Program-made: the position numbers and the translations under genes
Part shown: one piece after another, positions 5,641 through 63,536 of the stretch
How the letters are laid out: the number at the start of each line of letters is the position of its first letter
Position numbering within the stretch: the stretch's first letter is position 1
Notes under the pieces: model-generated
What the model saw: only the letters and a program-made list of their open reading frames with translations
What the model was told of the DNA's origin: nothing
Databases searched by the model: none
Source: an uncultured Acidobacteriota bacterium
GTDB taxonomy: Bacteria > Acidobacteriota > Vicinamibacteria > Vicinamibacterales > CAVVIG01
Length of the DNA: 64,000 bases
Reading direction: 5' to 3'
Assembly: GCA_963712905.1 (NCBI GenBank)
Contig: CAVQJU010000014.1
Location: 170,661 to 234,660, forward strand

Positions 5641-6411
5641 CGTCGTTCTCCCAAGCCCCGCAGGCTGTTCATGAATGTCAGGACGTCGGTCAGGTCGCTG
5701 TCGTTCAGCCGATCGGGGCCGAACGCCGGCATCAGCGAGTTGGTCTCGCGGACGACGTCGCGCACGCTGCTCTTGAGGAAGCCGCGAAGGTGCCCGCCCT
5801 CGTCCATCATCTGAATCGAGAACGCGTCTTCGCTTTTTCGCACGCCGCGGATGCGCTGGCCGTCGCGCGTCGTGACGGTGACGGTCTTGTAGCCGTCCGG
5901 CATGGACGCGTTGGGATCGCGCACGGCCTGTCTCAGCGCCGCAGGCGGCTGGCTCTGCGCGATGACCGAGAGATTCGGGGCCGAGTGGACCGCCGCGGCC
6001 GTTGACCGTGTGGCAGGTGCCGCACGACGCCCAGAAGACCCGCTCGCCGTTCGCGGCGTTGCCTCGCGGCACTTCGGCCGCGCCCGCGCCGTTCAGGCTG
6101 CGCAGGTAGCTCACGAGGTTTCGCAGGTCGGCATCCGGCGCGTTGCTGGAGGGCATGATGGTGTTCGGCACACCCTGCCGGATCGTCTGGAACACGCGTT
6201 CGTCGGTCGCCCCGGAGGCCCACAGCCTGGTCAGGTCGTGTCCCGCCACGCCCTTCGCGTCGCTCCCGTGGCACTCCGCGCACCGCTCGCGGAACGTCGC
6301 CCCACCGGCCTGGACGGCCGGATCGCCCGGCCCGTTCTGCCCGGCTGCGGCACCGGTAATCGCTATCACGACGGCGCAGGCCGTCAGACCCCATTTCGGC
6401 ATGCCGCACAT
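5637..6411 (-). pseudogene. di-haem c-type cytochrome, one frame break as sequenced
   Basis: The N-terminal part (frame of ORF 4039..6411) has a signal peptide and two CxxCH motifs (CAECH, CGTCH). The conserved C-terminal part (RDPNASMPDGYKTVTVTTRDGQRIRGVRKSEDAFSIQMMDEGG...MPAFGPDRLNDSDLTDVLTFMNSL) is in the frame of ORF 5637..5924. Removing one nt in the G-run at 5977-5980 gives a continuous GPLGPNLSVIAQSQPPAALRQAVRDPNAS. Confidence 0.7.
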
Positions 6412-9888: not shown

Positions 9889-9905
9889 CGACGTTGCTTT
9901 CGTGG

Positions 9906-9951
9906 CGCGGGCCTTTCAGGCCCGCGGCTTGGCGGCCCTGAAAGGGCCGCC
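9906..9951. repeat. pair of GC-rich hairpins with TTTCA/TGAAA loops (REP-like element)
   Basis: First hairpin: CGCGGGCC-TTTCA-GGCCCGCG (9906-9926). Second hairpin: GGCGGCCC-TGAAA-GGGCCGCC (9931-9951). The second is the exact reverse complement of 38597-38617. Confidence 0.65.
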
Positions 9952-17423: not shown

Positions 17424-17813
17424 ATGCCGAGTGACTGGCAGGAGCTGACCAGGCTGACGGGCGGGGCGGAGGTCGAAGTCGAGCGCGTCCGGCTCACCGG
17501 ATCCGAGGTGGCAATCGAGGGCCGGTTCACGCTGCCTCCTTTGGCTCAGCTGCCGGGAGAAGACCAGATTTTCGTGGCCGCCTTTGTCCGGTGTCACGGA
17601 TCCATCAAGCAGATGGAGAAGTACTTCGGCGTCAGCTATCCCACCATCAAGAACCGCCTCAACAAGATCGGCAGCAGGCTCGCCTTCGTCGAGATCGATC
17701 CGTCGCCGGCCGAGGCCGCCGAGGGCGTCCCCGCGAGCGCCGTTCTCGATCAGCTGGAACGCGGAGAACTCACCGTTGCGCAGGCGCTCGATCGCCTGAA
17801 GGAGAAGTCATGA
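17424..17813 (+). CDS. DUF2089-family protein (putative HTH regulator)
   Basis: ..VRLTGSEVAIEGRFTLP.. followed by the block typical of DUF2089: FVAAFVRCHGSIKQMEKYFGVSYPTIKNRLNKI. Confidence 0.75.
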   Translation: MPSDWQELTRLTGGAEVEVERVRLTGSEVAIEGRFTLPPLAQLPGEDQIFVAAFVRCHGSIKQMEKYFGVSYPTIKNRLNKIGSRLAFVEIDPSPAEAAEGVPASAVLDQLERGELTVAQALDRLKEKS

Positions 17814-18232
17814 GCGAGGAAACGCGTCGGGTGCTCGAGATGTTGTCGCAGGGGAAAGTCAGCGTGCTCGAAGCCGAGCAGCTCTTGCAGGCGGTGAAGG
17901 CGCCGGGCCAGCCGGGCCCGCCAGGCCCGGCGGGCGACGACAAGAAGGTCGAACCGCGCTACTTTCGCATCCTCGTCAACAAGCCCGCTCATGAGGGCAA
18001 GAAGGCGGAGGCGGTCAACATCCGCGTGCCGATCACCGTGGTTCGCGGCGGCCTGCGCCTCGGCGCGTTGTTCCCGGGCATGCTCGGCAAAAAGAAGATT
18101 CAGCTGGACAACGGCACCGAGCTCGACCTGTCGAAGGTGACCTACACGGATCTCGAGGCGATGATCAAGGACATCGGCGAGCTCACGGTGGATGTGGACG
18201 GCGACGCGCAGGTGCGGATCCGTTGCGAATAG
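17810..18232 (+). CDS. SHOCT-like / LiaX-YvlB N-terminal-domain protein
   Basis: ATGA overlap with the DUF2089 gene. N-terminus MSEETRRVLEMLSQGKVSVLEAEQLLQAV matches the SHOCT-like helix pair seen in YvlB/LiaX N-termini, followed by a Pro-rich linker and a small beta-rich domain. Confidence 0.65.
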   Translation: MSEETRRVLEMLSQGKVSVLEAEQLLQAVKAPGQPGPPGPAGDDKKVEPRYFRILVNKPAHEGKKAEAVNIRVPITVVRGGLRLGALFPGMLGKKKIQLDNGTELDLSKVTYTDLEAMIKDIGELTVDVDGDAQVRIRCE

Positions 18233-18868: not shown

Positions 18869-19777
18869 ATGATCACACTCGCGTCCGGCCTCTCCTATTT
18901 CGATCTCATGTTCGAGCGTCGACCGCGGATCATCGCGACCGCGGTCGTGCATGCGTCGGGCGGCGTCGCGCTGGTGGACCCCGGGCCATCGAGCACGCTG
19001 CCCACGCTTCGCGCGACGCTCGCCGCCTCCGGCATCTCGATGGCGGATGTCACCGACATCCTGCTCACGCACATTCACCTCGACCATGCGGGCGCGACCG
19101 GCACGCTCGTACGCGAGCATCCGCGGCTGCGCGTCTTCGTGCACGAGCGAGGGGCACCGCACATGGCGAACCCCGACAAGCTCGTGGTGAGCGCGGCGCG
19201 GCTGTACGGCGACGCGATGGACCGCTTGTGGGGCGAGGTGGCGCCGGTGCCTGCGGCGTCGATGACGATCCTGAAGGGGAAGGAACGCATCGCGGTGGGA
19301 GGCCGCACGTTCGACGTCGAGTACACGCCCGGCCACGCGTCGCATCACGTGAGCTTCTTCGATCGTGATTCAGGTGTGGCGCTGGTGGGGGATACGGCCG
19401 GCGTCAAGCTGACGCCCGACGGTTTCGTGATGCCGCCCACGCCTCCGCCCGACGTGGATCTCGAGGCCTGGCACGAGGGCCTGGGCCGCATCGAGCAGTG
19501 GCGTCCCGACACGCTGTTTCTCACGCACTTCGGGCCGTCCCCATTCGCCGGACACCTGCCGGCGCTCCGCGATCACATCGAGTTGGTCGGCGCGCTGTCG
19601 AAGCGGTTGCTCGCCCGAGAGGGGACCGACGAGGATCGCGAGGCGTGGTTTGCGGACGAAGTTCGCCGCGAGCTCACCCGCCGGACGAGCAACGCCGACA
19701 CGCTGGCGTACGAGCTGGCAGGCCGGTTCGATCTGAACTGGCGGGGCCTGGCGCGCTACTGGCGCAAGAGAACCTAG
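18869..19777 (+). CDS. MBL-fold metallo-hydrolase
   Basis: HxHxDH motif (LLTHIHLDHAG), then later TPGHASHH and FLTHFG. Confidence 0.85.
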   Translation: MITLASGLSYFDLMFERRPRIIATAVVHASGGVALVDPGPSSTLPTLRATLAASGISMADVTDILLTHIHLDHAGATGTLVREHPRLRVFVHERGAPHMANPDKLVVSAARLYGDAMDRLWGEVAPVPAASMTILKGKERIAVGGRTFDVEYTPGHASHHVSFFDRDSGVALVGDTAGVKLTPDGFVMPPTPPPDVDLEAWHEGLGRIEQWRPDTLFLTHFGPSPFAGHLPALRDHIELVGALSKRLLAREGTDEDREAWFADEVRRELTRRTSNADTLAYELAGRFDLNWRGLARYWRKRT

Positions 19778-19785
19778 CGCGAACC

Positions 19786-22390
19786 CTACTGCACCACCTG
19801 CACGACCGGTCCAGACGTGCTGGACGAGAACCCGGCGCTGCCCAGATACGACGCGGACACGACGTGGAGCCCGGTAGACAGCCCGGCCGTCGTCAGCGTC
19901 GCCTTGAAGCTGCCGCCGACGAGGGCGAGGGGCGCGTCGCCAATCGGGACACCGTCGGAATAGAACGACACCGTACCGCTCGTGGCTCCGCCAGTCACGG
20001 TCGCCGTGAAGGTCACGGGGGCTCCCAGCGTCGACGGGCTGACAGACGATGTCAGCGAGCTGACGGTGGTCGCTGGTCGAGTGCCCGAATAGATCGTGAT
20101 GGCTCCGGGCGGCGAACTGGTCGCCGCGAACGTCGCGTTCCCGAGATATCGCGCTGACAGCAGGTGCGTGCCGACCGCGAGCGTGGTCGGACTGATGGTC
20201 GCAACACCGCCGGCGACCGCCGCGCTGCCGATGACGGTATTGCCCTCCATGAATTGCACCGTGCCTGTCGGTGTGCCGCCGCCGAGCGGGATGACCGCCG
20301 CGACGAGCGTCGCCGGCTGGCCGGCCGCCTGCGGGTTCGTCTGTGCGATGAAGAACGTGAAGGTCGAGGCCGCAAGCGGCCGCACCGTTGCCGATCCGGC
20401 GCTCGACAGGCTGGCGGCGAAGTTCGTGCTGCCACCGTAAGCAGCGGTGATGTTGTGCACGCCGGAGGCGAGCCCGTTGATGACCAGATAGGCGATGTTG
20501 CTCGTCACCGTTGCGGACCCGAGCACGCTCGCGCCTTCCTTGAATTGCACGATGCCGCCGGGGACTCCTGCGCCCGGAGCAACCGGCGCGACAACGGCGA
20601 TGGCGTAGACAGGCTGCAGGAAGCCAACTGTCGCAGGCAGCACGAAAATGCTCGTCTGGGTGCTGGCGGGCGCGATCGTCAGGGTGCCGGGTTGGAACGC
20701 AATCGTGTAGTCGAGCGACGACAGGCCGCTCGGCACGATGGGATAACCGCCGACCGGGCTGGTCGCGGTGGCGGCGGTCGTCAGCGATAGCGTACCGCCG
20801 AGATTTCCCGCCGTGTCGCCGTTGACGAACCCGTTGAACGAAGCCGTGAACGTCGGCAGCGGCGCGCCGAATACCTTGTTGGCATTGATCGCGGTGACCG
20901 TCAGCGGCGCGCGGAGGACGCTGATCGTCACCGACTTGCCGGCCGGCTGGTAGTTCGCCGTGTCGGTCGGGGTGAACGTCACCGAGAGCTGCTGATTGTC
21001 GCCGGCGTGGAGCTTCACACCGGCCGCCGGCGTGTAGACGAAGGCGCCTGGAACGCTGGCGGTTGCGTTCAACTGCGTACCGCTCAGGGCGATTCCGTAG
21101 ACGATGCTGGCGGCGTTCGCCCACGTGATGACCGGCGTCGCGTGGACGACGTTGATCGAGACGTTCGCGGCGGCGTTGTTGTAGTGGACCGTGTCGGTCG
21201 GCGTGAACGTCACCTGAAGCGACTGGTTGTCGCCGGCGTTGAGAATGACGCCGGCGGCCGGCGTGTAGACAAACGTTCCAGGCACGGAAGCGGTGGCGTT
21301 CAATTGCGTCGCGCCGAGCGCCGTGCCGAACGGGATGTCGGCGGGATTCGCCCAGGTGATCGTCGGCGTCAGCTTGACGGTCGAGACGCTGCAGACGAAC
21401 AACGCCGTGGGTGTGTAACACGCCGAGAACGTGAAGCCGTCTCCCGTGAGCGTGGCGAACGCCCCCGAGATCGACGGATAGTCCATCACCTTGAACTGAT
21501 CGCCGGCGCCGGGCGTGAAGCCGTTGATGAATTGAGCGCTCAGTGTGCCGTTGAGGTTCACGGCGCCGCCGCCGAACTCGTCGAGCTGGCCTGCGCCGAT
21601 CCCGCCAATGCGGACGGCGAAAGTCCCCGTGTTGGTGAACGGCGGCGTAATCGTCAGCCGGTTCGGCGCACCTGAACGGCGCAGCGTACCGTTGTTCACG
21701 AACACCGGTGTGCCGCTGCCGTCGAAGCCGACGCTCAGGCTGGCCTGCACGTCCCAGACGCCGTCGGTCTCGTTGGTGACGCTGCTGCTGTTGCGCAGTT
21801 GGAGGCCTCCGGAAGTCCACAATACGGTTCCGTGATTGTGCAGCGACGAATCGATCAGGTAATGCGTCTGATTCGGTGCGGCGGATAGCGTCAGTGTGCG
21901 GCCGGGCATGACCTCAACGCCGCCAGCGACGCTGATAATCGTGTCGCCGTTGGCCTGCCATGTGCCGGATGCCCCGAGGTGGAGCGTCCCGGTCCCGGCA
22001 ACCTGCGCCGTGACGATGAAGGGCAGGGTGACCGTCACATCACCACTGATCGTCGTCAGGCCGTTGGCGTGCAGGAGCCCGGCTCCGGCGAAGGTCGAAC
22101 CTGTCTGCAATGTCACGTGGTCGAGGAGTAACACGGTGCTGGCGGCGAGCTGGAGCAGGCCGTTGGACGCCAGGCCGGCGCCGCTCGTCACGGCGATCGT
22201 GCCGGTCTGAAGATCGACGGTGCCGTTGTTGGTCGAGGCCACGTTCCCGCCAAGAGTCAGCGTCCCGGCCCCGAGAGACTTGCGCAGGATGCCGAGATTG
22301 GTGAACACCGGTGCGCCGATGCCATCGGAGACGAAAGCGAAGTCGCCCCGAGCATCCCACAGTCCGCCGGCCTCGTTCACAGCAGGACCT
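19786..22390 (-). CDS. giant repeat protein, segment 4: last module, MBG (YGX-type) domains and three Ig-like (group 3-like) domains
   Basis: ORF 19786..22437. Two units of type TPTITWANPADIPFGTALGATQLNATASVPGTFVYTPAAG..LNAGDNQSLQVTFTPTDT.NY. An MBG-like unit: LTVTAINANKVFGAPLPTFTASFNGFVNGDTAGNLGG...PVGGYPIVPSGLSSLDYTIAFQPGTLTI. Three units of type ..GTVQF.EG..V.G.A.....A........G.H...A.Y.G...F..S.S. Confidence 0.75.
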
Positions 22391-25300
22391 GGTGTTGCGG
22401 AGGAGCAGGGCGCCGCCCGTCCAGACGACCGTCCCATGATTGTGGAGCGACGAGTCGATCAGGAAGTGCGTCTGGTTCGGCGCGGAGGACAGTGTCAGCG
22501 TGCGGCCGGCCATGACGTCCACACCACCGGCGACGCTGATGATTGTGTCGCCGTTCGCCTGCCAGGTGGTCGCCGCGGCGAGGTGAAGCGTTCCCGTGCC
22601 GAAGATGTGTCCCGTGACGAGGAGTGGCGCCGCGACCGTCAGGTTGCCGGGGACCGTCGTGACCCCGTTGGCGTGCAGCAGGCCGGTCCCCGCGACCGTC
22701 GAGCCCGCCTGCAGCGTGACGCGATCCATCTGGAACGTCGTCCCGGTCGCGACCTGCAGCAGGCCGGTCGTCGTCAGCTGCTGCCCGCCGACGGCGACGA
22801 CGCCGCTCTGGAGATCGATCGTTCCGGTGTTGAAGTACGCGACGTTCCCCCCGAGAGTCAGCGTGCCCGGGCCCGCGGACTTGCGCAGGATGCCGAGATT
22901 GGTGAACACCGGCGCGCCGATGCCATCGGAGACGAAAGCGAAGTCGCCCCGAGCATCCCACAGTCCGCCGGCCTCGTTCACAGCAGTACTGGTGTTGCGG
23001 AGGAGCAGGGCGCCGCCCGTCCAGACGACCGTCCCATGATTGTGGAGCGACGAGTCGATCAGGAAGTGCGTCTGGTTCGGCGCGGAGGACAGCGTCAGTG
23101 TGCGGCCGGCCATGACGTCCACACCACCGGCGACGCTGATGATTGTGTCGCCGTTCGCCTGCCAGGTGGTGGCCGTGGCGAGGTGAAGCGTTCCGGTGCC
23201 GAAGATGTGTAGGGTGACGAGGAGTGGCACCGTGACTGTCAGGTCGCCGGGGACCGTCGTGACCCCGTTGGCGTGCAGCAGACCGCCGCCGCTGAACGTC
23301 GAGCTCGCCTGCAGCGTGACGTGGTCCAGCTGGAACGTCGTCCCGATGGCGACCTGCAGCGGGCCGCTCGTATTCAGCCCCCCCGGACTGGTGACAGCGA
23401 GCGTACCGCTCTGGAGGTCGATGGTGCCGGTGTTGGCATAGACGACGACACCCCCGAGCGTCAGCGTGCCGGCGCCGGCACTTTTCCGCAGCGTGCCGAG
23501 GTTGGCGAAGGCCGGCGAACCGGGGCCCCCTGAGCCAACGGACACATCGCTTTGAACATCCCAGAGGCCCCCGACCTCGTTGGTGACCGCGCTGGCGTTG
23601 AGGAGCAGGCCGCCCGATGTCCAGAGAACCGTCCCGTGATTGTGCAGCGACGAGTCGATCAGGTAGTGCGTCTGATTCGGCGCCGAGGACAGCGTCAGTG
23701 TGCGGCCGGCCATGACGTCTACGCCGCCCGTGACGCTGATGATCGTATCGCCGTTCGCCTGCCAGGTTGTGGCCGCGGCGAGGTGAAGCGTCCCGGCGCC
23801 GGCGACCTGTCCCGTCACGAGGAGCCGTGCCGTGACGGTGACGTCGCCGGTGATTGTCGTCAGTCCATTGGCGTGCAGGAGACCCGCCCCGCCGAACGTC
23901 GAGCCGTTCTGCAGCGTGACGCGATCCAGCTGGAACGTCGTTCCGGTCGCGACCTGCAGCGGGCCGCTGGTCGTCAGCTGTTGCCCGCCGACGGCGATGA
24001 CGCCGCTCTGGAGATCGATGGTGCCGCTGTTGGCATAGACGACGACACCCCCGAGCGTCAGCGTGCCGGCGCCGGCGCTTTTCCGCAGGGTGCCAAGGTT
24101 GGTGAAGGTTGGTGAACCGGGGCCCCCTGAGCCAACGGACACGTCGCCTTGAACATCCCAGAGGCCGCCGACCTCGTTGGTGACCGCACTGCCGTTGAGG
24201 AGCAGGCCGCCCGATGTCCAGACAACCGTCCCGCTGGTGTGCAGCGAGGAGTCGATCAGGTAGTGCGTCTGATTCGGCGCAGAAGAGATCGTCAGCGTGC
24301 GACCGGCCATGACGTCCACGCCGCCCGCGACGCTGATGATCGTGTCGCCGTTCGCCTGCCAGGTTGCAGGGGCTGCCAGGTGGAGCGTTCCCGTGCCACT
24401 GACGGTTCCAGTCACCAGAAGCGGAGTCGTGATCGTGACCGCCCCGGTGATCGTCGTCACGCCATTGGCGTGGAGCAGGCCGGCGCCGCCAAAGGTCGAG
24501 CCGTTCTTCAGGGTGACGCGGTCCAGCTGGACGGTCATCCCCGCAGCCACCTGCATCACGCCACTGGTCGTCAGCTGTTGCCCGCCGACGGCGAGGATGC
24601 CGCTCTGGAGATCGATGGTGCCGGTGTTGGAATAGACGACGGTCCCGCCGAGCGTGAGCGTGCCGGCGCCGGCGCTCTTCCGCAGGGTGCCAAGGTTGGT
24701 GAAGGTTGGTGAACCAGGGCCCCCTGAGCCAACGGAGACGTCGCCTTGAACATCCCAGAGGCCGCCGACCTCGTTGGTGACCGCGCTGCCGTTGAGGAGC
24801 AGGCCGCCCGATGTCCAGACGACCGTCCCGCTGGTGTGCAGCGAGGAGTCGATCAGGTAGTGCGTCTGATTCGGTGCGGCAGAGATCGTCAGCGTGCGAC
24901 CGGCCATGACATCGACGCCGCCCGCCAGGCTGATGATCGTATCGCCGTTGGCTTGCCACGTGGCGGGCGCGTCCAGATGCAGCGTGCCCGTCCCGGCGAT
25001 CTGGCTGGTGATGAGGAGCGGCGCCGTGACCGTGACGTTGCCAGTGATGGTCGTGAGCCCGTTCGCCTGTAACAATCCGGGGCCGGCGAACGTCGAACCG
25101 GTCTGCAACGTCACTTTGTCGAGCTGGAACGCGGTACCGGCCGCCAGTTTCAGGAAGCCGCTGTTGATCAACTGCAAGCTGCTGGTGACGGCGATGGTGC
25201 CGGCCTGAAGATCGATCGTCCCGCTGTTCGCGAACGCAATCGTGCCGCCCAGCGTCATCTGGCCGCCGGTGGAGGCTTTGCGCAACGTGCCGAGGTTCGT

Positions 25301-25690
25301 GAACGTCGGCAGCCCCACGGAATCGGATGTCAGGCTCAGATCGTTGTCGGCTTCCCAGACGCCGTCGGACTCGACGATCACGGCGCTGTTGCGGATCGTC
25401 ACGGCGCCATACGTCCAGATGACCGCGCCATGAACGTGCAGGGATGAGTCGATCAGGAAGTGATTCGGATAATCGCCGGGGCTGATGCCAATCGTGAGCG
25501 CGCCGCCGGCGGGCACGGTCACCCCTCCGGCCAGGCTGATCACCGAGTTGGGGCCGCCGACCCATGAGGATGATGCGGCTGGACTCAGCGTCGCGCTGCC
25601 CGTTCCCGTGATCGTGCCCGACAGCGTGAGGCCGCCGCCGAACGAGGCCGTGCCGGAGACGATCAGCGTTCCCGTGACGATCAGCTGTTC
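21640..25690 (-). repeat. seven tandem in-frame coding repeats, period ~597-607 bp
   Basis: The landmark ..gattgtg(c/g)agcgacga(g/a)tcgatcagg.. or its diverged form recurs near 21825, 22432, 23032, 23633, 24230, 24827 and 25425. 22441-22560 versus 23041-23160 (offset exactly 600) differ at 2 of 120 positions. Confidence 0.85.
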
Positions 25691-25705
25691 CGCAGACTGT
25701 ACCGG
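22386..25705 (-). CDS. giant repeat protein, segment 3: six of the seven ~200-aa modules
   Basis: Coding part of ORF 22040..26215, from ..VQSAEQLIVTGTL.. to ..TGGALLLRNT. Each module contains GTGTLHL...TWQANGDTIIS.AGGVDVMAGRTLT.S.APNQTH(Y/F)LIDSSLH..GTV.WT.G.L.L......NE.GGLWD......V......P.FTNLG.LRKS.G.GTLTLGG.V...N.GTIDLQSG..AV. Confidence 0.75.
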
Positions 25706-26474
25706 ACTGCACGTTCGCTGTCGTCGTCCGCACGGTGACGACGAAATTGCCGGCCGGCCGATCGATGACCACGGTATCGCCGTCGCCGGGAACAACGCCG
25801 CCGCTCCAGTTCGTGGGGACGTCCCAGAAACCGCTGGCGTCGACATTCCACGTGACGATGTTCGACGACGCTGGGGAGTTCGCGGCGCCGGCCGGCGCCG
25901 ATGCCGGGTTGTGATCGGAGGACGAAGACGTTGACGCCTCGCTGACGCGGGTCGCCAGGACGAACGTGCCGAGCGCCGCCGCGTGGCCGCACAGGGACGC
26001 CTGATCGGCAGCAAGCGCGGCCTCATCGACCCAGGCCGCGCCGTCGAATCGCAGCAGCCGAAGTGCAGCGGCGGCGGATGTCGTTTCCGGCGTGTCGAAA
26101 CACACGAGGGCGCCGTCTTGCGTCGTGGCGTCAGCGACGACGCTGAAGTACGCCGTGACGGCCTTGAATTCTGTCGGCACCGCAGGACCGGCGGTGGTGA
26201 TGGCCAGCGACGCATTGCCTGGCGCCGTCACGTTCGAGAAGGTGACCGTCAACGGGTTCCGCCCGGCGACCGGATCAAACGGATCGGTGCGGACGTTCGA
26301 TCCGGCGGACGCGTCGGGTGGAAGCGCGATCGTGAAGATGGCGGTTGGGTCAGGCGCCGTCAGAATCGCCGTGTGTCCGTCCGGAGAGAGCGCCGCCGTG
26401 ACTCCCGGTATTCCACCTGCCGGGCTATCGACCGGCGTCGTTTCGCCGCGGTTCAAATCGTGCAATAAAGCCGC
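25700..26474 (-). CDS. giant repeat protein, segment 2: spacer domains and W..NW..G..P motif region
   Basis: Coding-looking part of ORF 22377..26465: ..DLNRGETTPVDSP...LTVTFSNVTAPGNASL...IVTWNVDASGFWDVPTNWSGGVVPGDGDTVVIDRPAGNFVVTV. Downstream of about 25700 this frame turns Arg-rich nonsense. Confidence 0.65.
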
Positions 26475-27412
26475 GTCGCCGCCTCGAAGAGCACTCGACG
26501 GCCGTTGCCGCTTATCGACACGAAGTTCGAAGCCGCGTCTGCGCCGTCGGACGCGCTTACCCGCGTCGTCGTCCCGTTACGGAGATCCACCACGAAAACG
26601 TCCGCAGACCCGTTCGAGTCGCCAGGCACGAGGTTGTCGGCCGCCGATGTGAAGGCGACGGCCGACCCGCCGGCGGCGATCGCCGCGCCCGCCGCCGCGG
26701 CATTCAATGCTGAATTCGTGAGCAGGCGCAGGTTCGCCGAAGATCCCGTGCGATCGAGGAGGTAGACGTCGCCGACCTGATTCAAATCCTCCGGGAGCAG
26801 CTGGCTTGCTGTGGCGAACGCCACGTAGCGGCCGTCGGCGGAGATCGAGGGACCGCCGGTGAGGCGCGCGCCACGCGTCCAACGTTCGGTGCGGCCGGCC
26901 ACAAGATCGCGAACGAACAGATCCGGCGTGCCCGGCGCATCTCCGTCCGCGCGGTCGAGATTCGCAGTACTCGCGAACGCCACGAAACGCCCGTTGCCTG
27001 AAAGGACGGGGGCGCCACTCAACGTCCCGTCGGCTTCGGTCAATCCGCCGTCGCCGACGTCAACCCGTATCGGTTGTCCCGTGAACGGCGCGTTCCTGAC
27101 GTATGCCGCAGATATCCCGGCCGGTCCATCGGCGCGAAACGCCAGGCGTGTGCCGTCGAGGCTCAGGGACAGCGGGTAGGCGCACCTGCACTGACCGACC
27201 GGCGATAGCTGCCCGGTGGTCTGATTCCTGACGTAGATCGTTTGCAGGCCGGTCGGAGGTGTGCCCAGCCCCAGATCGGCCGAACTGACAAACGCCACGA
27301 TGTCGGCGGGTCCATTCATCGCCGGTTGGGCGGCGACCTGCAGGGGAATCGCGAGCGCGATGGCGGCAAGTACTGAGGTTCGGAGTTGCCCAGACTTGCG
27401 TTGAATACGCAC
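26453..27412 (-). CDS. giant repeat protein, segment 1: signal peptide + PD40/TolB-like beta-propeller repeats
   Basis: Repeated ..G(R/T)..AF.S.A.NL...D.NG..DVFV.D.. units: SGNGRFVAFASTANLDRADGDAPGTPDLFVRD, SADGRYVAFATASQLLPEDLNQVGDVYLLD, GGSAVAFTSAADNLVPGDSNGSADVFVVD. Confidence 0.75.
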   Translation of the reverse strand: MRIQRKSGQLRTSVLAAIALAIPLQVAAQPAMNGPADIVAFVSSADLGLGTPPTGLQTIYVRNQTTGQLSPVGQCRCAYPLSLSLDGTRLAFRADGPAGISAAYVRNAPFTGQPIRVDVGDGGLTEADGTLSGAPVLSGNGRFVAFASTANLDRADGDAPGTPDLFVRDLVAGRTERWTRGARLTGGPSISADGRYVAFATASQLLPEDLNQVGDVYLLDRTGSSANLRLLTNSALNAAAAGAAIAAGGSAVAFTSAADNLVPGDSNGSADVFVVDLRNGTTTRVSASDGADAASNFVSISGNGRRVLFEAATRLYCTI

Positions 27413-27564
27413 GTTTCCCCCTTATGGCTCGGTCCGCCTAGCTCATCATTTGACAAGCTCGGCATTATTGACCAAGACACGCGGGAGAACGACAGATTTT
27501 TGCAGTTGAGGGTGTTGAGTCAGACCACGCCGTCGAACGAGTCGAAAAGACGCACCAGGACGAC

Positions 27565-27945
27565 TTACGCTGTCGCGCGCGCGGGCGCCGACATGCTCTG
27601 GCGCCGCGGTTCGACCATGAGCCGCAGCGCGAGGCCCTGCGGGGCCCCGGCCGACGTGGCCGGCGTCACGCGATAGACCGCCGACAGCACGCGGCCGCGC
27701 CGCAGCGCCTCGGGCAGCGCGTCGCCGTCGCGCGCCTCGCGCTCGAGCTGAAACTGCACCAGCCGATACATCGGAATCGAGACGCCCGACTGGCACTCCA
27801 CGTAGACGCCCTGCTCGCAGACGTTGCGCGCCACGACGCTGGCAAACCGCTCGGTGCCGCGCTGGTCCCGCCACATCAGGCGCGCGGGCAGTGCCACCGG
27901 ACGGCGTTCCGTCAGGCGCGTGTGGTCGTTCGGGCGAGTGGGCAT
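27565..27945 (-). CDS. PilZ-like domain protein (putative c-di-GMP receptor)
   Basis: RLTERR (RxxxR) is followed 25 aa later by NVCEQG, which matches (D/N)x(S/C)xxG, and then a beta-rich segment: the PilZ motif pair. The start is uncertain (ATG 27945 chosen; TTG 28014 is possible). Confidence 0.5.
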   Translation of the reverse strand: MPTRPNDHTRLTERRPVALPARLMWRDQRGTERFASVVARNVCEQGVYVECQSGVSIPMYRLVQFQLEREARDGDALPEALRRGRVLSAVYRVTPATSAGAPQGLALRLMVEPRRQSMSAPARATA

Positions 27946-28094
27946 CGTGTGGACAGTTGCTGGCGTCACGGCATCCTCCTGAGGATGAAAGCCTTGTGCG
28001 AGGAGATGTATCAAGGGCCACGCCCGGTAAATTCTGGCTTACGCCACCAGATGGTCCAATAACCTAACACTAACCAAATCAGTGGGTTACTAAA

Positions 28095-28171
28095 CTGTGC
28101 AAGGAATGAACTTCCTGTGCAAGATGGATACTTGCTATCCGATCAGTGTGGTAATCGGATATCCAGTATCC
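28095..28171 (-). promoter_or_regulatory. cluster of direct and inverted repeats between the sigma-54 activator gene and the PilZ-like gene (candidate activator binding sites)
   Basis: CTGTGCAAG occurs twice (28095-28103, 28115-28123; 20-bp phase). Also GGATA-CTTGC-TATCC (28126-28140), the palindrome GGATATCC (28157-28164) and a further TATCC (28167-28171). The region is visibly AT-richer than its flanks. Confidence 0.3.
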
Positions 28172-28173
28172 AG

Positions 28174-31109
<2,936 letters not shown>

Positions 31110-31493
31110 TTACGTCTTGGTGCGGAGCGTCTCGAGGAACGGACGACCCTTCGTGGCAAGGCGGGCTTCGAGACGGGCCGAGCAATCGCAGTCGCCGCAC
31201 GACCATGCTTCGGTGCCGTTCATGTCGCGGCAGCGGCTGCGGGCGTGGGCGTCCTGAACTTTCTCGAGATCGAAGTACTCTTCCCAGTACTCACGCTCTT
31301 CGGCCAGCGGGGTGTAGCAGTAGCAGACTTCCACCCACTGCACGCGCCCATCCTCGTGTGCGCGCGCCTCGCTCATGTTGCGGAAGTATTCGTCGCCGGC
31401 CACCGAACCCCGGCCGAGCGTGCCCTCGTCGATGGCCCGCTCGAGGGCGTTTGCCCGGTTGGCCTTGACGCGCGCCGTGACGAGGTAGCGCAT
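31110..31493 (-). CDS. small Cys-rich hypothetical protein (127 aa)
   Basis: MRYLVTARVKANRANALERAIDEGTLGRGSVAGDEYFRNM...WVEVCYCYTPL...HARSRCRDMNGTEAWSCGDCDCS; 7 Cys. Starts 5 nt after the pgi stop, and its stop abuts the activator ATG. No family name recalled with confidence. Confidence 0.6.
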   Translation of the reverse strand: MRYLVTARVKANRANALERAIDEGTLGRGSVAGDEYFRNMSEARAHEDGRVQWVEVCYCYTPLAEEREYWEEYFDLEKVQDAHARSRCRDMNGTEAWSCGDCDCSARLEARLATKGRPFLETLRTKT

Positions 31494-31497
31494 GCGC

Positions 31498-33252
31498 TTA
31501 TTGTAAAGCGATCTGCCCGAGCAGGGCGTCGGCAACCTGACGCAGCAGCAGGGCGTCGGCCGCCGGGAGGTGGACGTGCAGCGCGCGCCGGCCCGCCGCG
31601 TCCAGCGAGGCGAAATCGCCCAGCGCCTGCGCCAGTTCGAGCGTTCCGAAGGTAAACGGGTAACCTGGAATATCGAGGTCCGCGCGCGGCGTGGCGGTGA
31701 TCAGGACGAACACGCCGGTGTTCGGCCCGCCTTTGTGCAGCTGGCCCGTCGAGTGCAGATATCGCGGGCCGACCCCCGTCATCGTCGCGGCGCGCGTGCG
31801 GTCCCGGACGGCATTCCGGAACCAGGCGAGGTCGCCGGTCAGCGCCCGCGGGTCGATGTAGGCGAGGAGCGCGAAGTAATCGCCGGGCTGGATCAGCGTC
31901 AGCAGCGCGTCAGGGCCCGCCCCGGACAGCCGCTCACGGGCCTGGCGGCTCGCCGTCAGCGTGATGCCACCGGCGAGTGTCAGGCCGACTGCCGCGCGGG
32001 GGAACGATCCGTTCGACTGGTACGTATTCAGCAACGTCGTGGTCGCGTCTTTCGCCTGCTTGACGTTGGGCTCGTCGAAGGGGTTGATGCCCAGCAGCGC
32101 CCCGGCGATTGCCGTCGCGATCTCCCAGCGCACGAACTCGGCACCCAGCGCGGCCGGCTCGTACCAGTCGATCGTCGCCGTCGGATGGCCTGCGGCCTCG
32201 AGCTGGTCGAGGTCGCGACTCCGCCCCGTGCTGCCGGGCCTCTGGACTTCGACGAACAGACGGTCGCGACCGTAGTGCGACGGCGTGCCCGGCGTCTCGC
32301 CCGCGATCGGCACGACGCCGGCGCCGCTCTTCCCGGTGCTTTCCGCCACGAGCTGTTCAACCCACAGGCCGAACGGCTCCAGTTCCCGCGGGAGGAGCAG
32401 CGTCAGCTTGTCGCGGCCCTCCCGCGCGGCTGCGCCAAGAAGAAGGCCGAGCGTGACCGCCGGATTGGCGTCCGCCGGTTCGGCCGAGGCAGACAGCATC
32501 GCGAGGCCCCAGCCCGTGAGCGCTGCGATGTCCTGTCCCATCAGCGCCGACGGCACCAGGCCGAAGAACGACAGGGCCGAGTAGCGCCCGCCGATGTCCG
32601 ACGGGTTGATGAAGGTGTCGCGAAACGACTCGGCGCGCGCGCGCCGCGCCAGCTCGGTGCCTTCGTCGGTGATCGCGACGAAATGATCCGCCCACCGCGC
32701 GACGCCCGCGTCTTCCAGCGTGCGGCGGAAATGTGCCGCGAGGGTGTTCGGCTCGATCGTCGTGCCCGACTTGCTGGCCAGCAGATACAGTGTGTGGCGG
32801 GGTGTGGTGGCGGCCGCGCGGATCGCGTCGGGATCCGTCGAGTCGAGCATGTGGAAGCGCGGCCGGCCCGGCGCCGTGCCGACGATGGCTCGCAGCACCT
32901 CCGGCGCGAGGCTGGAGCCGCCCATCCCGAGCAGCACAATATCGGTGAAGCCGTCGCGCTTGACGCCGTCGGCAAAAGCCCGGAGGCGATCGAGCGAGTC
33001 GGCCATCAGGATGGGTGACGACAGCCAGCCGAGCCGGTTGGCGATGGTGGCCTGCACCTCGGGCGACGCGCTCCAGGCCGACGGCTCCCGGCGCCACATG
33101 GCGGCGGCCGCGAGTTGAGCCGGTTTCATGTCGGCGCCAACGCGATCGCTGATTGGCCCCGGCACGATCCGCAGGCTGCGTCGCAGGCGGTCGCGCTTGC
33201 CGGCCACGTCGAGCGCAGGCCATCTGGTGAGGAGATCCGCCGCGTGCTCCAT
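31498..33252 (-). CDS. pgi: glucose-6-phosphate isomerase
   Basis: PGI/SIS blocks: VLLGMGGSSLAPEV, LYLLASKSGTTIEPN, IGGRYSALS, GINPFDEPNVKQAK, HSTGQLHKGG. The true start may be the internal ATG at 33129. Confidence 0.85.
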   Translation of the reverse strand: MEHAADLLTRWPALDVAGKRDRLRRSLRIVPGPISDRVGADMKPAQLAAAAMWRREPSAWSASPEVQATIANRLGWLSSPILMADSLDRLRAFADGVKRDGFTDIVLLGMGGSSLAPEVLRAIVGTAPGRPRFHMLDSTDPDAIRAAATTPRHTLYLLASKSGTTIEPNTLAAHFRRTLEDAGVARWADHFVAITDEGTELARRARAESFRDTFINPSDIGGRYSALSFFGLVPSALMGQDIAALTGWGLAMLSASAEPADANPAVTLGLLLGAAAREGRDKLTLLLPRELEPFGLWVEQLVAESTGKSGAGVVPIAGETPGTPSHYGRDRLFVEVQRPGSTGRSRDLDQLEAAGHPTATIDWYEPAALGAEFVRWEIATAIAGALLGINPFDEPNVKQAKDATTTLLNTYQSNGSFPRAAVGLTLAGGITLTASRQARERLSGAGPDALLTLIQPGDYFALLAYIDPRALTGDLAWFRNAVRDRTRAATMTGVGPRYLHSTGQLHKGGPNTGVFVLITATPRADLDIPGYPFTFGTLELAQALGDFASLDAAGRRALHVHLPAADALLLRQVADALLGQIALQ

Positions 33253-62546: not shown

Positions 62547-62562
62547 AGGCATCTGTTTTGCA
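62547..62562 (+). promoter_or_regulatory. sigma-54 (-24/-12) promoter candidate upstream of the TonB-family gene
   Basis: AGGCATCTGTTTTGCA: GG at 62548-62549 and GC at 62560-62561 with exactly 10 nt between. It matches the GGCA and TTGCA parts of the consensus TGGCACG-N4-TTGCW. It ends 59 nt upstream of ATG 62622. Confidence 0.5.
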
Positions 62563-62621: not shown

Positions 62622-63536
62622 ATGGCAGAGAGCACACCCAGCGCGGCGGCTCGCACGACGACGGCCGGGCACCTGTCGGTGTACGTCGAGGGCGCACACC
62701 CCGACGAAGTGCCGTTTCTGCTCGAACGCCAGCCCAGGCGGATGGGGTTCGCCGTAGGCGGCTCTGCCGTCGTCCAGCTTGTGATGTTTGTGCTGCTCAT
62801 TCTGGCGAGCCGGTACAAGCCCGTCGCAGCGCCAGTCTTTGCACTGCTCCCCGAGAACCCCAGCAAGGACATCATCTGGCTGAGTGAACCCGGCCCCGGC
62901 GGCGGCGGCGGTGGCGGCGGCAACAAGATGAAAGAGCCGCCCCGCAAGGCCGAGCTGCCCGGCAAGGACAAGATCACCGTGCCGGTGGAGAAGGCGCCGA
63001 AACTCGAGCCGGTCCAGACGAAAACCGAACCGCCGGTCATCGAGCAGCTGAATATTCCCGCGAAGACGCTCGCGTCGGCCGTCGACTCACTGCCAGGCGC
63101 CATCGAAGGGCCGCCGGGTCCGCCGACGGTGTCGCAGGGGAGCGGGTCGGGCGGCGGCGCTGGTACGGGCACCGGGTCGGGCATCGGGCCGGGCACCGGT
63201 TCCGGGCTCGGGCCGGGAAGCGGTGGCGGAACGGGCGGCGGCGTATACCGGCCCGGCAACGGCGTGACGCTTCCGGTTGTGCTCCGGGAAAAGAAGCCGC
63301 AGTACACCTCCGACGCGATGCGCGCGAAGGTCCAGGGCACGGTGCTGCTCGAGTGCGTCGTGAAACCGGACGGCAGCGTGGGCGAGGTGAAAGTAGTCCG
63401 GTCGCTCGATTCGACGTTCGGCCTGGATCTCGAAGCGATGAAGGCCGCCCGCGACTGGCGGTTCCGTCCCGGGATGCGGCAGGGCGAGCCGGTGGCCGTG
63501 CTCGTGACGATCGAGCTGACCTTTACGCTGCGCTAG
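62622..63536 (+). CDS. energy transducer TonB-family protein
   Basis: N-terminal TM (VVQLVMFVLLILA), Gly/Pro-rich linker, C-terminal TonB domain (PQYTSDAMRAKVQGTVLLECVVKPDGSVGEVKVVRSLDSTFGLDLEAMKAARDWRFRPG). Confidence 0.85.
   Translation: MAESTPSAAARTTTAGHLSVYVEGAHPDEVPFLLERQPRRMGFAVGGSAVVQLVMFVLLILASRYKPVAAPVFALLPENPSKDIIWLSEPGPGGGGGGGGNKMKEPPRKAELPGKDKITVPVEKAPKLEPVQTKTEPPVIEQLNIPAKTLASAVDSLPGAIEGPPGPPTVSQGSGSGGGAGTGTGSGIGPGTGSGLGPGSGGGTGGGVYRPGNGVTLPVVLREKKPQYTSDAMRAKVQGTVLLECVVKPDGSVGEVKVVRSLDSTFGLDLEAMKAARDWRFRPGMRQGEPVAVLVTIELTFTLR

What the first reader, a model, noticed from the sequence alone, without database searches (positions are those of the whole stretch)
19786..31493. Co-oriented 11.7-kb unit: Cys-rich small protein, TPR/GAF sigma-54 activator, PilZ-like protein, ~2,540-aa secreted repeat protein (candidate regulated surface-adhesin system)
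The layout is seen directly. Four minus-strand genes follow pgi with 5-nt and 0-nt gaps between the first three. Two ~150-nt repeat-rich gaps follow, one ahead of the PilZ-like gene and one ahead of the giant gene.

The giant protein has a Sec signal peptide and PD40-like propeller repeats. These are followed by a W..NW..G..P motif region of the kind that precedes beta-helical passenger domains, then seven ~200-aa modules, MBG (YGX) domains and three Ig-like domains. I see no recognisable C-terminal anchor (no autotransporter barrel, PEP-CTERM, LPXTG or T9SS-like tail).

From established knowledge, PilZ domains bind c-di-GMP, GAF/TPR sigma-54 activators couple signals to RpoN promoters, and giant repeat adhesins are often c-di-GMP controlled (the Lap paradigm).

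The inference is that this is a self-contained regulated adhesin or biofilm module with a composition I cannot match to a described system. The seven-Cys small protein, translationally abutted to the activator, may be its sensory or redox partner.
Basis: partly seen in the sequence, partly recalled or inferred. Interest (0 to 1): 0.75.

Follow-up and report, generated by a model that had tools for sequence, protein, structure and literature searches.

The report
Regulator cassette plus inserted giant surface-protein gene
The four genes are real and probably intact, but they are two things joined together: a regulator-plus-small-protein cassette shared by a whole order of soil Acidobacteria, and a giant secreted repeat-protein gene that only one narrow lineage has inserted behind it, so this is not an ancestral dedicated adhesin-control system.

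Summary
The layout is real. After pgi on the minus strand come a 127-aa Cys-rich protein, a ~977-aa TPR/AAA+/HTH sigma-54 activator (EBP), a 134-aa small protein and a 2,541-aa signal-peptide protein with seven ~200-aa modules, MBG and 3 Big_3_5 domains.

The five frame breaks are ±1-nt indels. Four were checked against a relative whose genes are intact, and the fifth against a paralogous module. RNase R elsewhere in the window is also frame-broken, so assembly error is likely.

Across 80 species-level Vicinamibacterales loci:
- The EBP sits next to the small protein in 69/73.
- A convergent MBL gene follows in 68/77.
- No relative of the giant gene appears in 0/67.

The giant gene sits here only in the window's close clade. 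There it is intact at 1,947 to 2,360 aa, on many independent metagenome contigs. A 57% homologue lies in an unrelated context.

The conserved core has two GGATAC-N3-GTATCC palindromes, phase-locked 109 and 140 nt upstream of a GG-N8-TTGATA block. That is sigma-54 spacing with A instead of C at -12.

The small protein fails the Pfam and NCBIfam PilZ models and lacks RxxxR, but its model matches PilZ barrels. GAF is not confirmed. The Cys-rich family has no annotation.

Verdict: a composite locus. Control of the giant gene is possible only by unproven read-through.

The parts
31110..31493 (-). 127-aa Cys-rich protein. Conserved pattern: CxC ... H ... C ... CxxCxC. It starts 4 nt after the pgi stop, and its TAA stop overlaps the EBP ATG (TAATG).
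   Evidence: for the ORF. More than 7,000 homologue clusters, always ~127 aa. 473 representatives at 50% identity. Conserved Cys and His columns. No Pfam, NCBIfam or PDB hit.
28174..31110 (-). Sigma-54 enhancer-binding protein, ~977 aa once two 1-nt indels are corrected (~31037/38 and ~29115). It has a TPR-rich N-terminal ~640 aa, an AAA+ domain with GSFTGA, a lid domain and a Fis-type HTH.
   Evidence: Pfam TPR_12, Sigma54_activat (1e-62), AAA_lid_14 and HTH_8. The generic EBP core matches NCBIfam models. Intact 978-aa orthologues in L085, L086 and L088. Indels mapped. No GAF hit.
28157..28171 (-). Distal palindrome GGATACTGGATATCC, a candidate EBP enhancer site. It is centred ~140 nt upstream of the promoter GG.
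   Evidence: I2. In one search, sites lie at 140±2 and 109±2 nt in 64/67 loci, against 0.12 expected per shuffled region.
28126..28140 (-). Proximal palindrome GGATAGCAAGTATCC, a candidate EBP enhancer site. It is centred ~109 nt upstream of the promoter GG.
28095..28123 (-). Direct repeat CTTGCACAG x2, with 20-nt spacing, between the palindromes and the promoter block. Its role is unknown.
   Evidence: D8. Partly conserved in the alignment.
28009..28024 (-). Conserved GG-N8-TTGATA block (GGCGTGGCCCTTGATA). It has sigma-54 -24/-12 spacing, with A in place of the canonical C at -12. It is the candidate promoter of the small gene.
   Evidence: It is the only match in the window. A GG-N8-TTG-N-[A/T] pattern, which reads TTGAT in 61 of the loci, lies 42-82 nt upstream of the start codon in 67/73 loci. 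The columns are conserved while the flanks are not.
27565..27969 (-). 134-aa PilZ-fold small protein. It has a GTG start after AGGAGG. Motifs: ERRPVALPAR (no RxxxR), NVCEQG (NVSExG in the family consensus) and a conserved C-terminal RATA.
   Evidence: AF2 core pLDDT is 70-88. Top Foldseek hits are BcsA, Alg44, PA0012, YcgR, MapZ and MotI PilZ domains, with E 3e-3 to 0.1. No Pfam, NCBIfam or PDB profile hit.
27413..27564 (-). 152-nt spacer between the small gene and the giant gene. It is roughly 70% conserved among the three genomes that carry the giant gene. No consensus terminator or sigma-70 promoter was found.
   Evidence: RNA fold z = -2.45.
19786..27412 (-). Giant secreted repeat-protein gene, 2,541 aa after three 1-nt indels are corrected (~26465/66, ~25705, ~22389). 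It is a clade-specific insertion between the small gene and the convergent MBL gene.
   Evidence: Absent from 0/67 related loci. Present and intact in L085 (1,947 aa) and in a 92-kb JGI contig (2,360 aa).
27329..27412 (-). Signal-peptide-like N-terminus, MRIQRKSGQLRTSVLAAIALAIPLQVAA.
   Evidence: Read directly from the sequence. No predictor was run.
26214..27325 (-). PD40/TolB-like beta-propeller region (approximate bounds).
   Evidence: Pfam PD40 at 25 bits. Weak TolB propeller hit for homologue P0241. Precomputed Tricorn_N (faint) on homologues.
21361..25564 (-). Seven tandem ~200-aa modules (residues 617-2017). A beta-solenoid fold is inferred, not tested.
   Evidence: Periods of 199-202 aa and 37-88% identity. 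No Pfam hit. PDB hits are only spurious Fab matches.
19789..21360 (-). C-terminal stalk: two Ig-like repeats, one MBG_2 (20677-20904) and three Big_3_5 (19789-20649). There is no recognisable anchor.
   Evidence: MBG_2 6e-21, Big_3_5 1e-36 in 3 stretches. Coordinates.

Best explanation
The region is a composite of two parts.

Part 1: an order-wide regulatory cassette in Vicinamibacterales.
- It consists of a TPR-sensor sigma-54 activator and a 134-aa PilZ-fold protein.
- In about half of the lineages the activator is translationally coupled to a 127-aa Cys6-His protein.
- Inferred mechanism: the activator binds two GGATAC-N3-GTATCC palindromes that lie just past its own stop codon. From about -109 and -140 it activates RpoN-dependent transcription at a GG-N8-TTGATA promoter in front of the PilZ-fold gene.
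- The small protein then probably acts as an adaptor or effector. With its RxxxR motif missing it may not bind c-di-GMP.

Part 2: a 7.8-kb insertion.
- It is found only in the window's narrow clade, between the PilZ-fold gene and the convergent MBL gene.
- It carries a Sec-exported propeller/200-aa-module/MBG/Big_3_5 surface protein.
- The insertion replaced the intergenic region. In two of the five close relatives inspected (L001, L003) that region carries a GC-rich inverted repeat, which may act as a terminator. The giant gene may therefore now be read through from the activator-dependent promoter. This step is inferred only.

The five frame breaks are 1-nt assembly errors, not decay.
For: Shown:
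- Synteny counts are EBP/small-protein 69/73, MBL 68/77 and giant 0/67.
- In five close relatives inspected (L001, L003-L006) the junctions show a spacer of roughly 20-100 nt where the window has 7.8 kb.
- The giant gene recurs at this site, intact, only in the near clade.
- A 57% homologue lies in another context.
- All five breaks are ±1-nt indels relative to an intact relative or a paralogous module.
- RNase R and DUF2089 elsewhere in the window are also frame-split.
- The palindromes and the GG-N8-TTGATA block are phase-locked across 64-67 loci while their flanks vary.
- The GG-to-TTG spacing equals that of canonical TGGCAC-N5-TTGCT promoters found in the same lineage.
- The EBP has an intact AAA+ domain with GSFTGA and an HTH.
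- The small protein has a PilZ-type barrel fold.
- No terminator consensus lies between the small gene and the giant gene.
Against: - The -12 element reads TTGA, not TTGC, and the -24 half is only GG(C/T). The same lineage uses canonical TTGCT elsewhere, so the block could be something other than a sigma-54 promoter.
- Nothing shows that this EBP binds the palindromes.
- The AF2 model of the small protein is of moderate quality (mean pLDDT 67), and the Foldseek E-values are weak (>=3e-3).
- Read-through into the giant gene is untested. The 152-nt spacer is conserved and structured (z = -2.45), so it could hold its own promoter or an attenuator.
- Whether the breaks are errors cannot be proven without reads.
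Confidence: 0.6

Rival explanations
1. One reading: the four genes form a self-contained adhesin or biofilm module under c-di-GMP and sigma-54 control. The Cys-rich protein would be the activator's sensor partner, and the PilZ protein would relay c-di-GMP.
For: - The genes are co-oriented and tightly packed.
- The arrangement recurs intact on more than 10 contigs from different metagenomes within the near clade.
- No terminator lies before the giant gene.
- The small protein has a PilZ-type fold.
- The Cys-rich gene is translationally coupled to the EBP.
Against: - The giant gene is absent from 0/67 species-level relatives that keep the cassette.
- A giant homologue exists without the cassette.
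- The small protein fails the PilZ HMMs, lacks RxxxR, and this copy has C in place of the motif's S.
- No GGDEF, EAL, LapD/G, T1SS or RTX genes among the ORFs of the window that were scanned, and no c-di-GMP riboswitch.
- The Cys-rich gene abuts the EBP in only 32/63 loci.
Confidence: 0.15
2. The giant gene is an independent passenger. It is transcribed from its own promoter in the conserved 152-nt spacer and is functionally unrelated to the activator/PilZ cassette. The adjacency is an accident of where it inserted.
For: - The spacer is roughly 70% conserved among the three carriers, as is the start region.
- The L084 homologue functions in a different neighbourhood.
- The cassette is complete without the giant gene in all other lineages.
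Against: - No sigma-70 or sigma-54 consensus was found in the spacer.
- The genes are co-oriented and no terminator follows the small gene.
- The upstream region in L084 shows no similarity that would mark a portable promoter.
Confidence: 0.35
3. The conserved GG-N8-TTGATA block is not a sigma-54 promoter. It could be a sigma-70 or ECF -35-like element (TTGATA) or another regulator's operator, and the palindromes could bind a different factor.
For: - The canonical -12 C is replaced by A in nearly all loci.
- Bona fide canonical TGGCAC-N5-TTGCT promoters exist in the same genomes.
- TTGATA resembles a -35 hexamer.
Against: - No -10-like element is conserved 16-18 nt downstream, and the sigma-70 scan finds none.
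- GG is conserved at exactly the sigma-54 spacing, including in loci with a single GG.
- The paired palindromes at -109 and -140, directly downstream of an EBP gene, are a classic enhancer layout.
Confidence: 0.25
4. The EBP and the giant gene are genuinely pseudogenised in this genome, and the locus is decaying.
For: There are five frame breaks in 10.6 kb.
Against: - Every break is a single ±1-nt indel. There are no in-frame stops or larger lesions.
- GC3 stays at 0.8-0.9 in the shifted frames.
- Orthologues are intact in short-read assemblies.
- A housekeeping RNase R gene in the same window has two similar breaks.
- Related long-read MAG loci show the same fragmentation.
Confidence: 0.07

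Closest known systems
Single-domain PilZ proteins (for example PA4608/MapZ, PA0012, the Alg44 PilZ domain, the BcsA PilZ domain)
   Same: - Small size (~100-aa core).
- A six-stranded beta-barrel. The Foldseek top hits are almost all PilZ domains.
- The family consensus carries N-V-S-E-x-G, which fits the [D/N]xSxxG motif.
   Different: - No match to Pfam PilZ or any NCBIfam model, and none to a PDB profile.
- The RxxxR motif is absent (ERRPVALPAR).
- The window copy has Cys in place of the motif's Ser.
- The family has a conserved C-terminal RATA tail.
- It is always paired with a sigma-54 activator gene.
Bacterial enhancer-binding proteins of the NtrC/NifA/NorR class, with upstream activating sequences
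   Same: - A Sigma54_activat AAA+ core with a GAFTGA-type loop (GSFTGA), a lid and a Fis-type HTH.
- Two inverted-repeat sites ~100-150 bp upstream of a GG/-12 element.
   Different: - The ~640-aa N-terminal region is TPR-rich, with no REC, PAS, GAF or V4R hit.
- All NCBIfam equivalog scores fall far below their cutoffs.
- The target promoter has A at -12.
- In half of the lineages the EBP is translationally coupled to an unannotated Cys-rich protein.
   Same: Only the general idea of a giant repeat surface protein near a possible c-di-GMP-related component.
   Different: - The giant protein has an N-terminal Sec-type signal rather than a C-terminal T1SS signal.
- No RTX repeats, no LapG-type retention module, and no LapD, LapG or LapBCE genes beside it or among the other ORFs of the window that were scanned.
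- Any regulation here would be transcriptional.
Giant PD40 / MBG / Big_3_5 'Ig-like domain repeat' proteins of Vicinamibacterales and other soil bacteria (fibrillar-adhesin-like)
   Same: - The same N-terminal propeller and the same C-terminal MBG_2 plus Big_3_5 stalk.
- Hundreds of 1,400-4,000-aa relatives share these ends.
   Different: - The central 200-aa modules are shared with only three listed homologues (P0241-P0243) and have no Pfam model.
- Most relatives carry Laminin_G_3/ConA-like, TIG or other inserts instead.
Autotransporter / PATR-type beta-helical passengers
   Same: - The W..NW..G..P lead-in.
- G/T/L-rich 'GTLTLGG...NTGTIDLQSG' repeats that resemble beta-solenoid rungs. This is read from the sequence and rests on inference.
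   Different: - No Pfam hit to autotransporter barrel, PATR, pertactin or haemagglutinin repeats.
- No C-terminal barrel.
- The fold was not predicted here.

Membership tests
PilZ domain (PF07238) | Significant match to the PilZ profile HMM | tested here: not met
   No Pfam hit at E<=0.1, or at a nominal E<=5 for the window protein and three homologues (HMMER's speed filters drop most matches above about 0.1). No NCBIfam hit. No PDB profile hit at E<=10.
PilZ domain (PF07238) | Six-stranded PilZ-type beta-barrel fold | tested here: met
   The AF2 model has six strands and a core pLDDT of 70-88. 14 of the top 16 Foldseek PDB hits are PilZ domains, with prob ~1.0, E 3e-3 to 0.08 and TM 0.35-0.47. 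This is moderate strength only.
PilZ domain (PF07238) | N-terminal RxxxR c-di-GMP-binding motif | tested here: not met
   The family consensus is ERRPVALPARL. No Arg lies four residues after RR in any of 28 aligned members.
PilZ domain (PF07238) | [D/N]xSxxG motif | tested here: inconclusive
   The family consensus N-V-S-E-x-G fits the motif. The window copy reads N-V-C-E-Q-G.
PilZ domain (PF07238) | Binds c-di-GMP | not testable with these tools
   Needs DRaCALA, ITC or a similar assay.
Sigma-54 enhancer-binding protein (bEBP) | AAA+ Sigma54_activat domain with Walker A/B and a GAFTGA-type loop | tested here: met
   PF00158 at 1.3e-62. GESGTGKE, LFLDEI and GSFTGA are present in the reconstructed protein.
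Sigma-54 enhancer-binding protein (bEBP) | C-terminal Fis-type HTH DNA-binding domain | tested here: met
   HTH_8 at 4.7e-15.
   No GAF, GAF_2 or GAF_3 hit for the whole protein or for the 206-aa stretch just upstream of the AAA+ domain at a nominal E<=5. The fold was not predicted.
Sigma-54-dependent promoter | Conserved GG at -24 and GC at -12, separated by 10 nt (TGGCAC-N5-TTGCW) | tested here: inconclusive
   The GG and the spacing are conserved in 67/73 loci, but -12 reads GA (TTGATA). Canonical TTGCT promoters exist in the same lineage.
Lap-type c-di-GMP-controlled T1SS adhesin | RTX/T1SS C-terminal signal, adjacent ABC/MFP/TolC genes, LapD and LapG | tested here: not met
   No RTX or HemolysinCabind hit, and the protein has an N-terminal signal peptide. 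The neighbours are an MBL, a VTT protein, an OMP, a GDSL lipase and a MacB-type ABC. No LapD/G or GGDEF/EAL genes among the ORFs of the window that were scanned.
Autotransporter (T5SS) / T9SS / PEP-CTERM / LPXTG surface proteins | C-terminal barrel or sorting domain | tested here: not met
   The protein ends directly after the third Big_3_5 domain. No such Pfam family matches at E<=0.1.
   0/67 species-level loci carry the giant gene, while 69/73 keep the EBP/small-protein pair. Cys-rich adjacency is 32/63. Co-occurrence holds only in the near clade.

The most novel reading that the evidence does not exclude
Vicinamibacterales carry an undescribed, order-wide sigma-54 circuit with these parts:
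- A highly conserved TPR-sensor activator, often translationally coupled to a Cys6-His metal- or redox-type 127-aa partner.
- Two phase-locked palindromic enhancers.
- A promoter with a fixed C-to-A change at -12.
- A single-gene output: a PilZ-fold protein without RxxxR that signals by protein-protein contact rather than by c-di-GMP.

In one clade the circuit has recently captured a giant surface-protein gene by insertion downstream, which would be a snapshot of regulon growth.
Probability: 0.3. Interest if true: 0.55.

Novelty: new variant of a known kind. Interest (0 to 1): 0.35.

Why it matters
Vicinamibacterales are abundant soil Acidobacteria with almost no genetics.

If the model holds, the cassette offers a compact, testable sigma-54 circuit:
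- The sensor domain is under stronger constraint than PGI, with a median of 78% identity against 65%.
- The enhancers are at defined, fixed positions.
- The promoter has an unusual -12 base.
- The output is an unannotated PilZ-fold protein.

Two protein families in the locus have no Pfam or NCBIfam coverage. The Cys-rich family has 473 clusters at 50% identity. The PilZ-fold family has more than 2,700 clusters at 90% identity.

The practical lesson for the scan is that tight co-orientation with a giant 'adhesin' gene is not evidence of a dedicated system. Here it is a lineage-specific insertion, and the apparent gene decay is assembly noise.

Tried and rejected
- A canonical sigma-54 promoter scan (GG-N10-GC, at least 9/12 matches) of the EBP/small-gene spacer found no hits in 73 loci. 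This led to the relaxed GG-N8-TTGA pattern.
- TGGCAC-N5-TTGCW with up to 2 mismatches gave 13 matches in the window against 21.6 expected. None lay before the giant gene.
- A sigma-70 and terminator consensus scan of 27300-28300 found nothing.
- An Rfam scan of 19000-32000 found only chance-level hits and no c-di-GMP riboswitch.
- TRF cannot see the 600-nt modules because its period cap is 500. They were measured at the protein level instead.
- Pfam and NCBIfam found nothing for either small protein.
- PDB profile searches found nothing for the PilZ-like and Cys-rich families.
- The module profile gave only spurious Fab heavy-chain matches, from G/S/T-rich composition.
- The AF2 model of the Cys-rich protein was poor (pLDDT 59). 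Its Foldseek hits had E>=0.18 and hint weakly at a ferredoxin-like fold. They were not used.
- The GGATAC palindromes were sought upstream of the divergent canonical sigma-54 promoters in relatives, and none were found. Those promoters therefore cannot be assigned to this EBP.
- Two literature searches found no description of such a cassette.


Full report
OBSERVATION

The window is 68% G+C. GC3 frame plots are therefore decisive for picking the coding frame.

On the minus strand I find the following genes:
- pgi, 31498-33252.
- A 127-aa Cys-rich ORF, 31110-31493. Its ATG lies 4 nt after the pgi stop.
- A sigma-54 activator, 28174-31110. Its ATG overlaps the Cys-rich TAA (TAATG).
- A small ORF, 27565-27969.
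- A giant gene, 19786-27412.

A convergent metallo-beta-lactamase-fold gene (18869-19777, + strand) ends 8 nt from the giant gene's stop.

The small gene most likely starts at GTG 27969, 5 nt after an AGGAGG. Its homologues are 134-136 aa. The gap upstream of it is thus ~204 nt, and the gap before the giant gene is 152 nt.

There are five frame breaks. Two are in the activator and three are in the giant gene.

After correction, Pfam gives these results:
- Activator: TPR_12, Sigma54_activat (1e-62), AAA_lid_14 and HTH_8.
- Giant protein: weak PD40, one MBG_2 and three Big_3_5 stretches.
- Both small proteins: nothing.

The giant protein has seven modules of 199-202 aa starting at residue 617. 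They are 37-88% identical to one another. No anchor or sorting domain is detected. No GAF model matches the activator.

FRAME BREAKS

Evidence that the breaks are assembly errors:
- A JGI metagenome contig (L085) is 88% identical to the window across the whole locus. It encodes an intact 978-aa activator and an intact 1,947-aa giant protein.
- Against L085, four of the window's breaks are single-base indels: CC to C, an extra G, TTT to TT, and an extra C.
- The fifth break is an extra G relative to the paralogous module.
- More contigs carrying the same 136-aa small protein show intact 978-aa activators and a 2,360-aa giant ORF.
- Elsewhere in the window, RNase R is split over three frames (RNB 1-231, RNB 248-323, S1). 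A DUF2089 gene is split from its C-terminal domain.
- Related long-read MAG loci are fragmented in the same way.

Assembly indel error is therefore by far the likeliest cause.

COMPARATIVE GENOMICS

Both small proteins are strongly conserved and unannotated. The small ORF has more than 2,700 homologue clusters and the Cys-rich protein has more than 7,000. Named hits are Vicinamibacterales.

I anchored on the small protein and retrieved 80 species-representative loci with 10-kb flanks. I then scored them by tblastn:
- The activator lies directly upstream of the small gene in 69 of 73 evaluable loci.
- The convergent MBL gene follows in 68 of 77.
- The Cys-rich gene abuts the activator in 32 of 63. 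In three loci pgi abuts the activator directly.
- No relative of any part of the giant gene occurs in any of 67 loci with at least 3 kb downstream.

In five close relatives inspected the small gene's stop and the MBL stop are roughly 20-100 nt apart. In two of them (L001, L003) the spacer carries a GC-rich inverted repeat. In the window, 7.8 kb sits there.

Only three listed proteins share the module region:
- Two (L083 and L085) are syntenic with the window at 86-88% nucleotide identity.
- The third (57% identity, L084) lies among unrelated genes, with no activator or PilZ-like gene nearby.

The other hits share only the propeller or the MBG/Big_3_5 ends.

The giant gene is therefore a clade-specific insertion into an order-wide cassette. 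Its module number varies among near relatives, giving 1,947, 2,360 and 2,541 aa.

REGULATORY ARCHITECTURE OF THE CONSERVED CORE

A strict sigma-54 consensus scan of the activator/small-gene spacer found nothing. An alignment of 43 spacers showed three conserved islands in otherwise free sequence.

Quantified, these are:
- A GG-N8-TTG-N-[A/T] pattern, which reads TTGAT in 61 of them, lies 42-82 nt upstream of the start codon in 67 of 73 loci. The window copy is at 28009-28024, and it is the only match in the 64 kb.
- Sites like GGATAC-N3-GTATCC (up to 3 mismatches out of 12) are centred at 109±2 and 140±2 nt upstream of that GG in 64 of 67 loci. The expectation is 0.12 per shuffled region. The window copies are at 28126-28140 and 28157-28171.

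The GG-to-TTG spacing is exactly that of canonical TGGCAC-N5-TTGCT promoters found in the same lineage. However, -12 is A rather than C.

Paired inverted repeats three helical turns apart, ~110-140 bp upstream of a -24/-12-spaced element, directly downstream of an EBP gene, are the textbook enhancer layout (established knowledge of NtrC-class activators). I therefore infer that the activator drives the small gene. This is an inference, and the noncanonical -12 base is a real caveat.

Other checks on the spacers:
- No sigma-70 or terminator consensus occurs in either gap.
- The 152-nt spacer before the giant gene is conserved among the three carriers.
- That spacer folds somewhat better than shuffles (z = -2.45).
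- No Rfam family is present.

THE SMALL PROTEINS

The 134-aa protein:
- It gets no Pfam, NCBIfam or PDB-profile hit.
- An AF2 model from 28 homologues (mean pLDDT 67, core 70-88, six strands) retrieves almost only PilZ domains from the PDB. These include BcsA, Alg44, PA0012, YcgR, MotI, MapZ and VCA0042. Probabilities are ~1.0 but E-values are only 3e-3 to 0.1.
- The family has N-V-S-E-x-G, which fits [D/N]xSxxG, but no RxxxR. The window copy has Cys in place of the motif's Ser.
- It is PilZ-like in fold. Membership of the c-di-GMP-binding PilZ family is not established.

The Cys-rich protein:
- It conserves CxC, a His, a lone Cys and CxxCxC.
- It has 473 representatives at 50% identity, nearly all 100-200 aa.
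- It has no Pfam or PDB relative.
- Its AF2 model is poor (pLDDT 59) and its fold matches are insignificant.

SURROUNDINGS

The neighbouring genes are ordinary chromosomal genes: MraW, a PQQ dehydrogenase, an OmpR-type two-component pair, a TonB-dependent-like OMP, Nramp, VTT, MBL, a GDSL lipase, MacB-type ABC systems, an RND pump, IspH, RNase R and TonB. No GGDEF, EAL, LapD/G or T1SS genes lie next to the giant gene. Roughly 40 of the window's ~55 ORFs were scanned in all.

MECHANISM AND RIVALS

Best-supported model (confidence ~0.6 for its core):
- A TPR-sensor EBP binds the two palindromes and activates a variant sigma-54 promoter for a PilZ-fold effector. In some lineages the EBP acts together with the Cys-rich partner.
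- In the window's clade a giant Sec-exported propeller/module/Ig surface protein gene was inserted downstream. It may now be read through from that promoter (about 0.4, untested).

Rivals:
- An independently transcribed passenger gene (0.35).
- A non-sigma-54 reading of the conserved block (0.25).
- True pseudogenisation (0.07).

COMPARISON AND NOVELTY

The parts are variants of known kinds: a bEBP with enhancers, a PilZ-fold adaptor, and a fibrillar-adhesin-like giant protein. The following appear undescribed:
- The specific cassette.
- The fixed -12 A in its promoter.
- Its two unannotated protein families.

The literature searches found nothing relevant. The claim that drew attention, a novel self-contained regulated adhesin system, is not supported as stated.

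Noticed in passing
window 58303-60498 (+): An RNase R-type gene is split over three frames: RNB positions 1-231 (58303-59727), RNB 248-323 (59720-60013) and S1 (60019-60498). This means two more 1-nt frame breaks in a housekeeping gene, and it points to assembly indel errors across the window.
   Followed up: partly
window 17433-18220 (+): The DUF2089 HTH domain (17433-17741) and its SHOCT-like C-terminal domain (17828-18220) lie in different frames. This is probably another indel.
   Followed up: no
L013 ~6363-6378 (- strand); also L002, L007, L014, L020, L026, L029, L032, L034, L064 and L082 (promoter); L010 and L040 carry the protein only: In 11 related loci a canonical sigma-54 promoter (TGGCAC-N5-TTGCT or a close variant) lies close to the Cys-rich gene start, on the opposite strand; 13 loci in all carry the protein it drives. 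It drives a 250-330-aa protein with a signal peptide, a P/T/Q-rich region and a conserved C-terminal 'KAGK.xVDR..LDEILA' helix. This gene is absent from the window. No GGATAC palindromes lie upstream of it.
   Followed up: partly
window 62547-62562 (+) and 9903-9918 (+): Two sigma-54-like matches were found. AGGCATCTGTTTTGCA lies ~75 nt upstream of a TonB_C gene (62637-63533). TGGCGCGGGCCTTTCA lies ~100 nt upstream of a CarboxypepD_reg/OMP_b-brl_4 gene (10015-12804). Overall match counts in the window are not above chance.
   Followed up: no
window 28095-28103 and 28115-28123 (- strand reads CTTGCACAG): An exact 9-nt direct repeat with 20-nt spacing lies between the palindromes and the promoter block. 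It is partly conserved in relatives as ..GCACAG..N..TGCACA. It may be a site for a second factor.
   Followed up: no
L085 7123-12966; 92-kb JGI contig (no DNA held); window 19786-27412: The number of 200-aa modules differs among near relatives, giving 1,947, 2,360 and 2,541 aa. This suggests rapid expansion and contraction by recombination between modules.
   Followed up: partly
L003 10400-10470: In a close relative that lacks the giant gene, the spacer between the small gene and the MBL gene holds a tandem CAGTCGG/CAGTCAG heptamer array followed by a GC-rich hairpin.
   Followed up: no
L016, L031, L045, L050, L065, L071, L079, L081 (record titles): Contigs carrying this Vicinamibacterales-type locus are titled Bifidobacterium/Bifidobacteriaceae, Casimicrobiaceae, Betaproteobacteria or Acidimicrobiia MAGs. 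The bins are probably mis-binned or mislabelled.
   Followed up: no
window 29190-31110 (EBP N-terminal region) compared with neighbouring genes across L003-L082: The TPR-rich sensor region of the activator is the most conserved protein of the locus. Its median identity is 78%, and 97-98% to L003 and L004. PGI has a median of 65%, the small protein 65% and the MBL 64%.
   Followed up: partly
L002/L007 7498-8169: An IS1595-family transposase and extra small ORFs are inserted between the activator and the small gene in one relative. A second 149-aa ORF directly follows the activator there.
   Followed up: no
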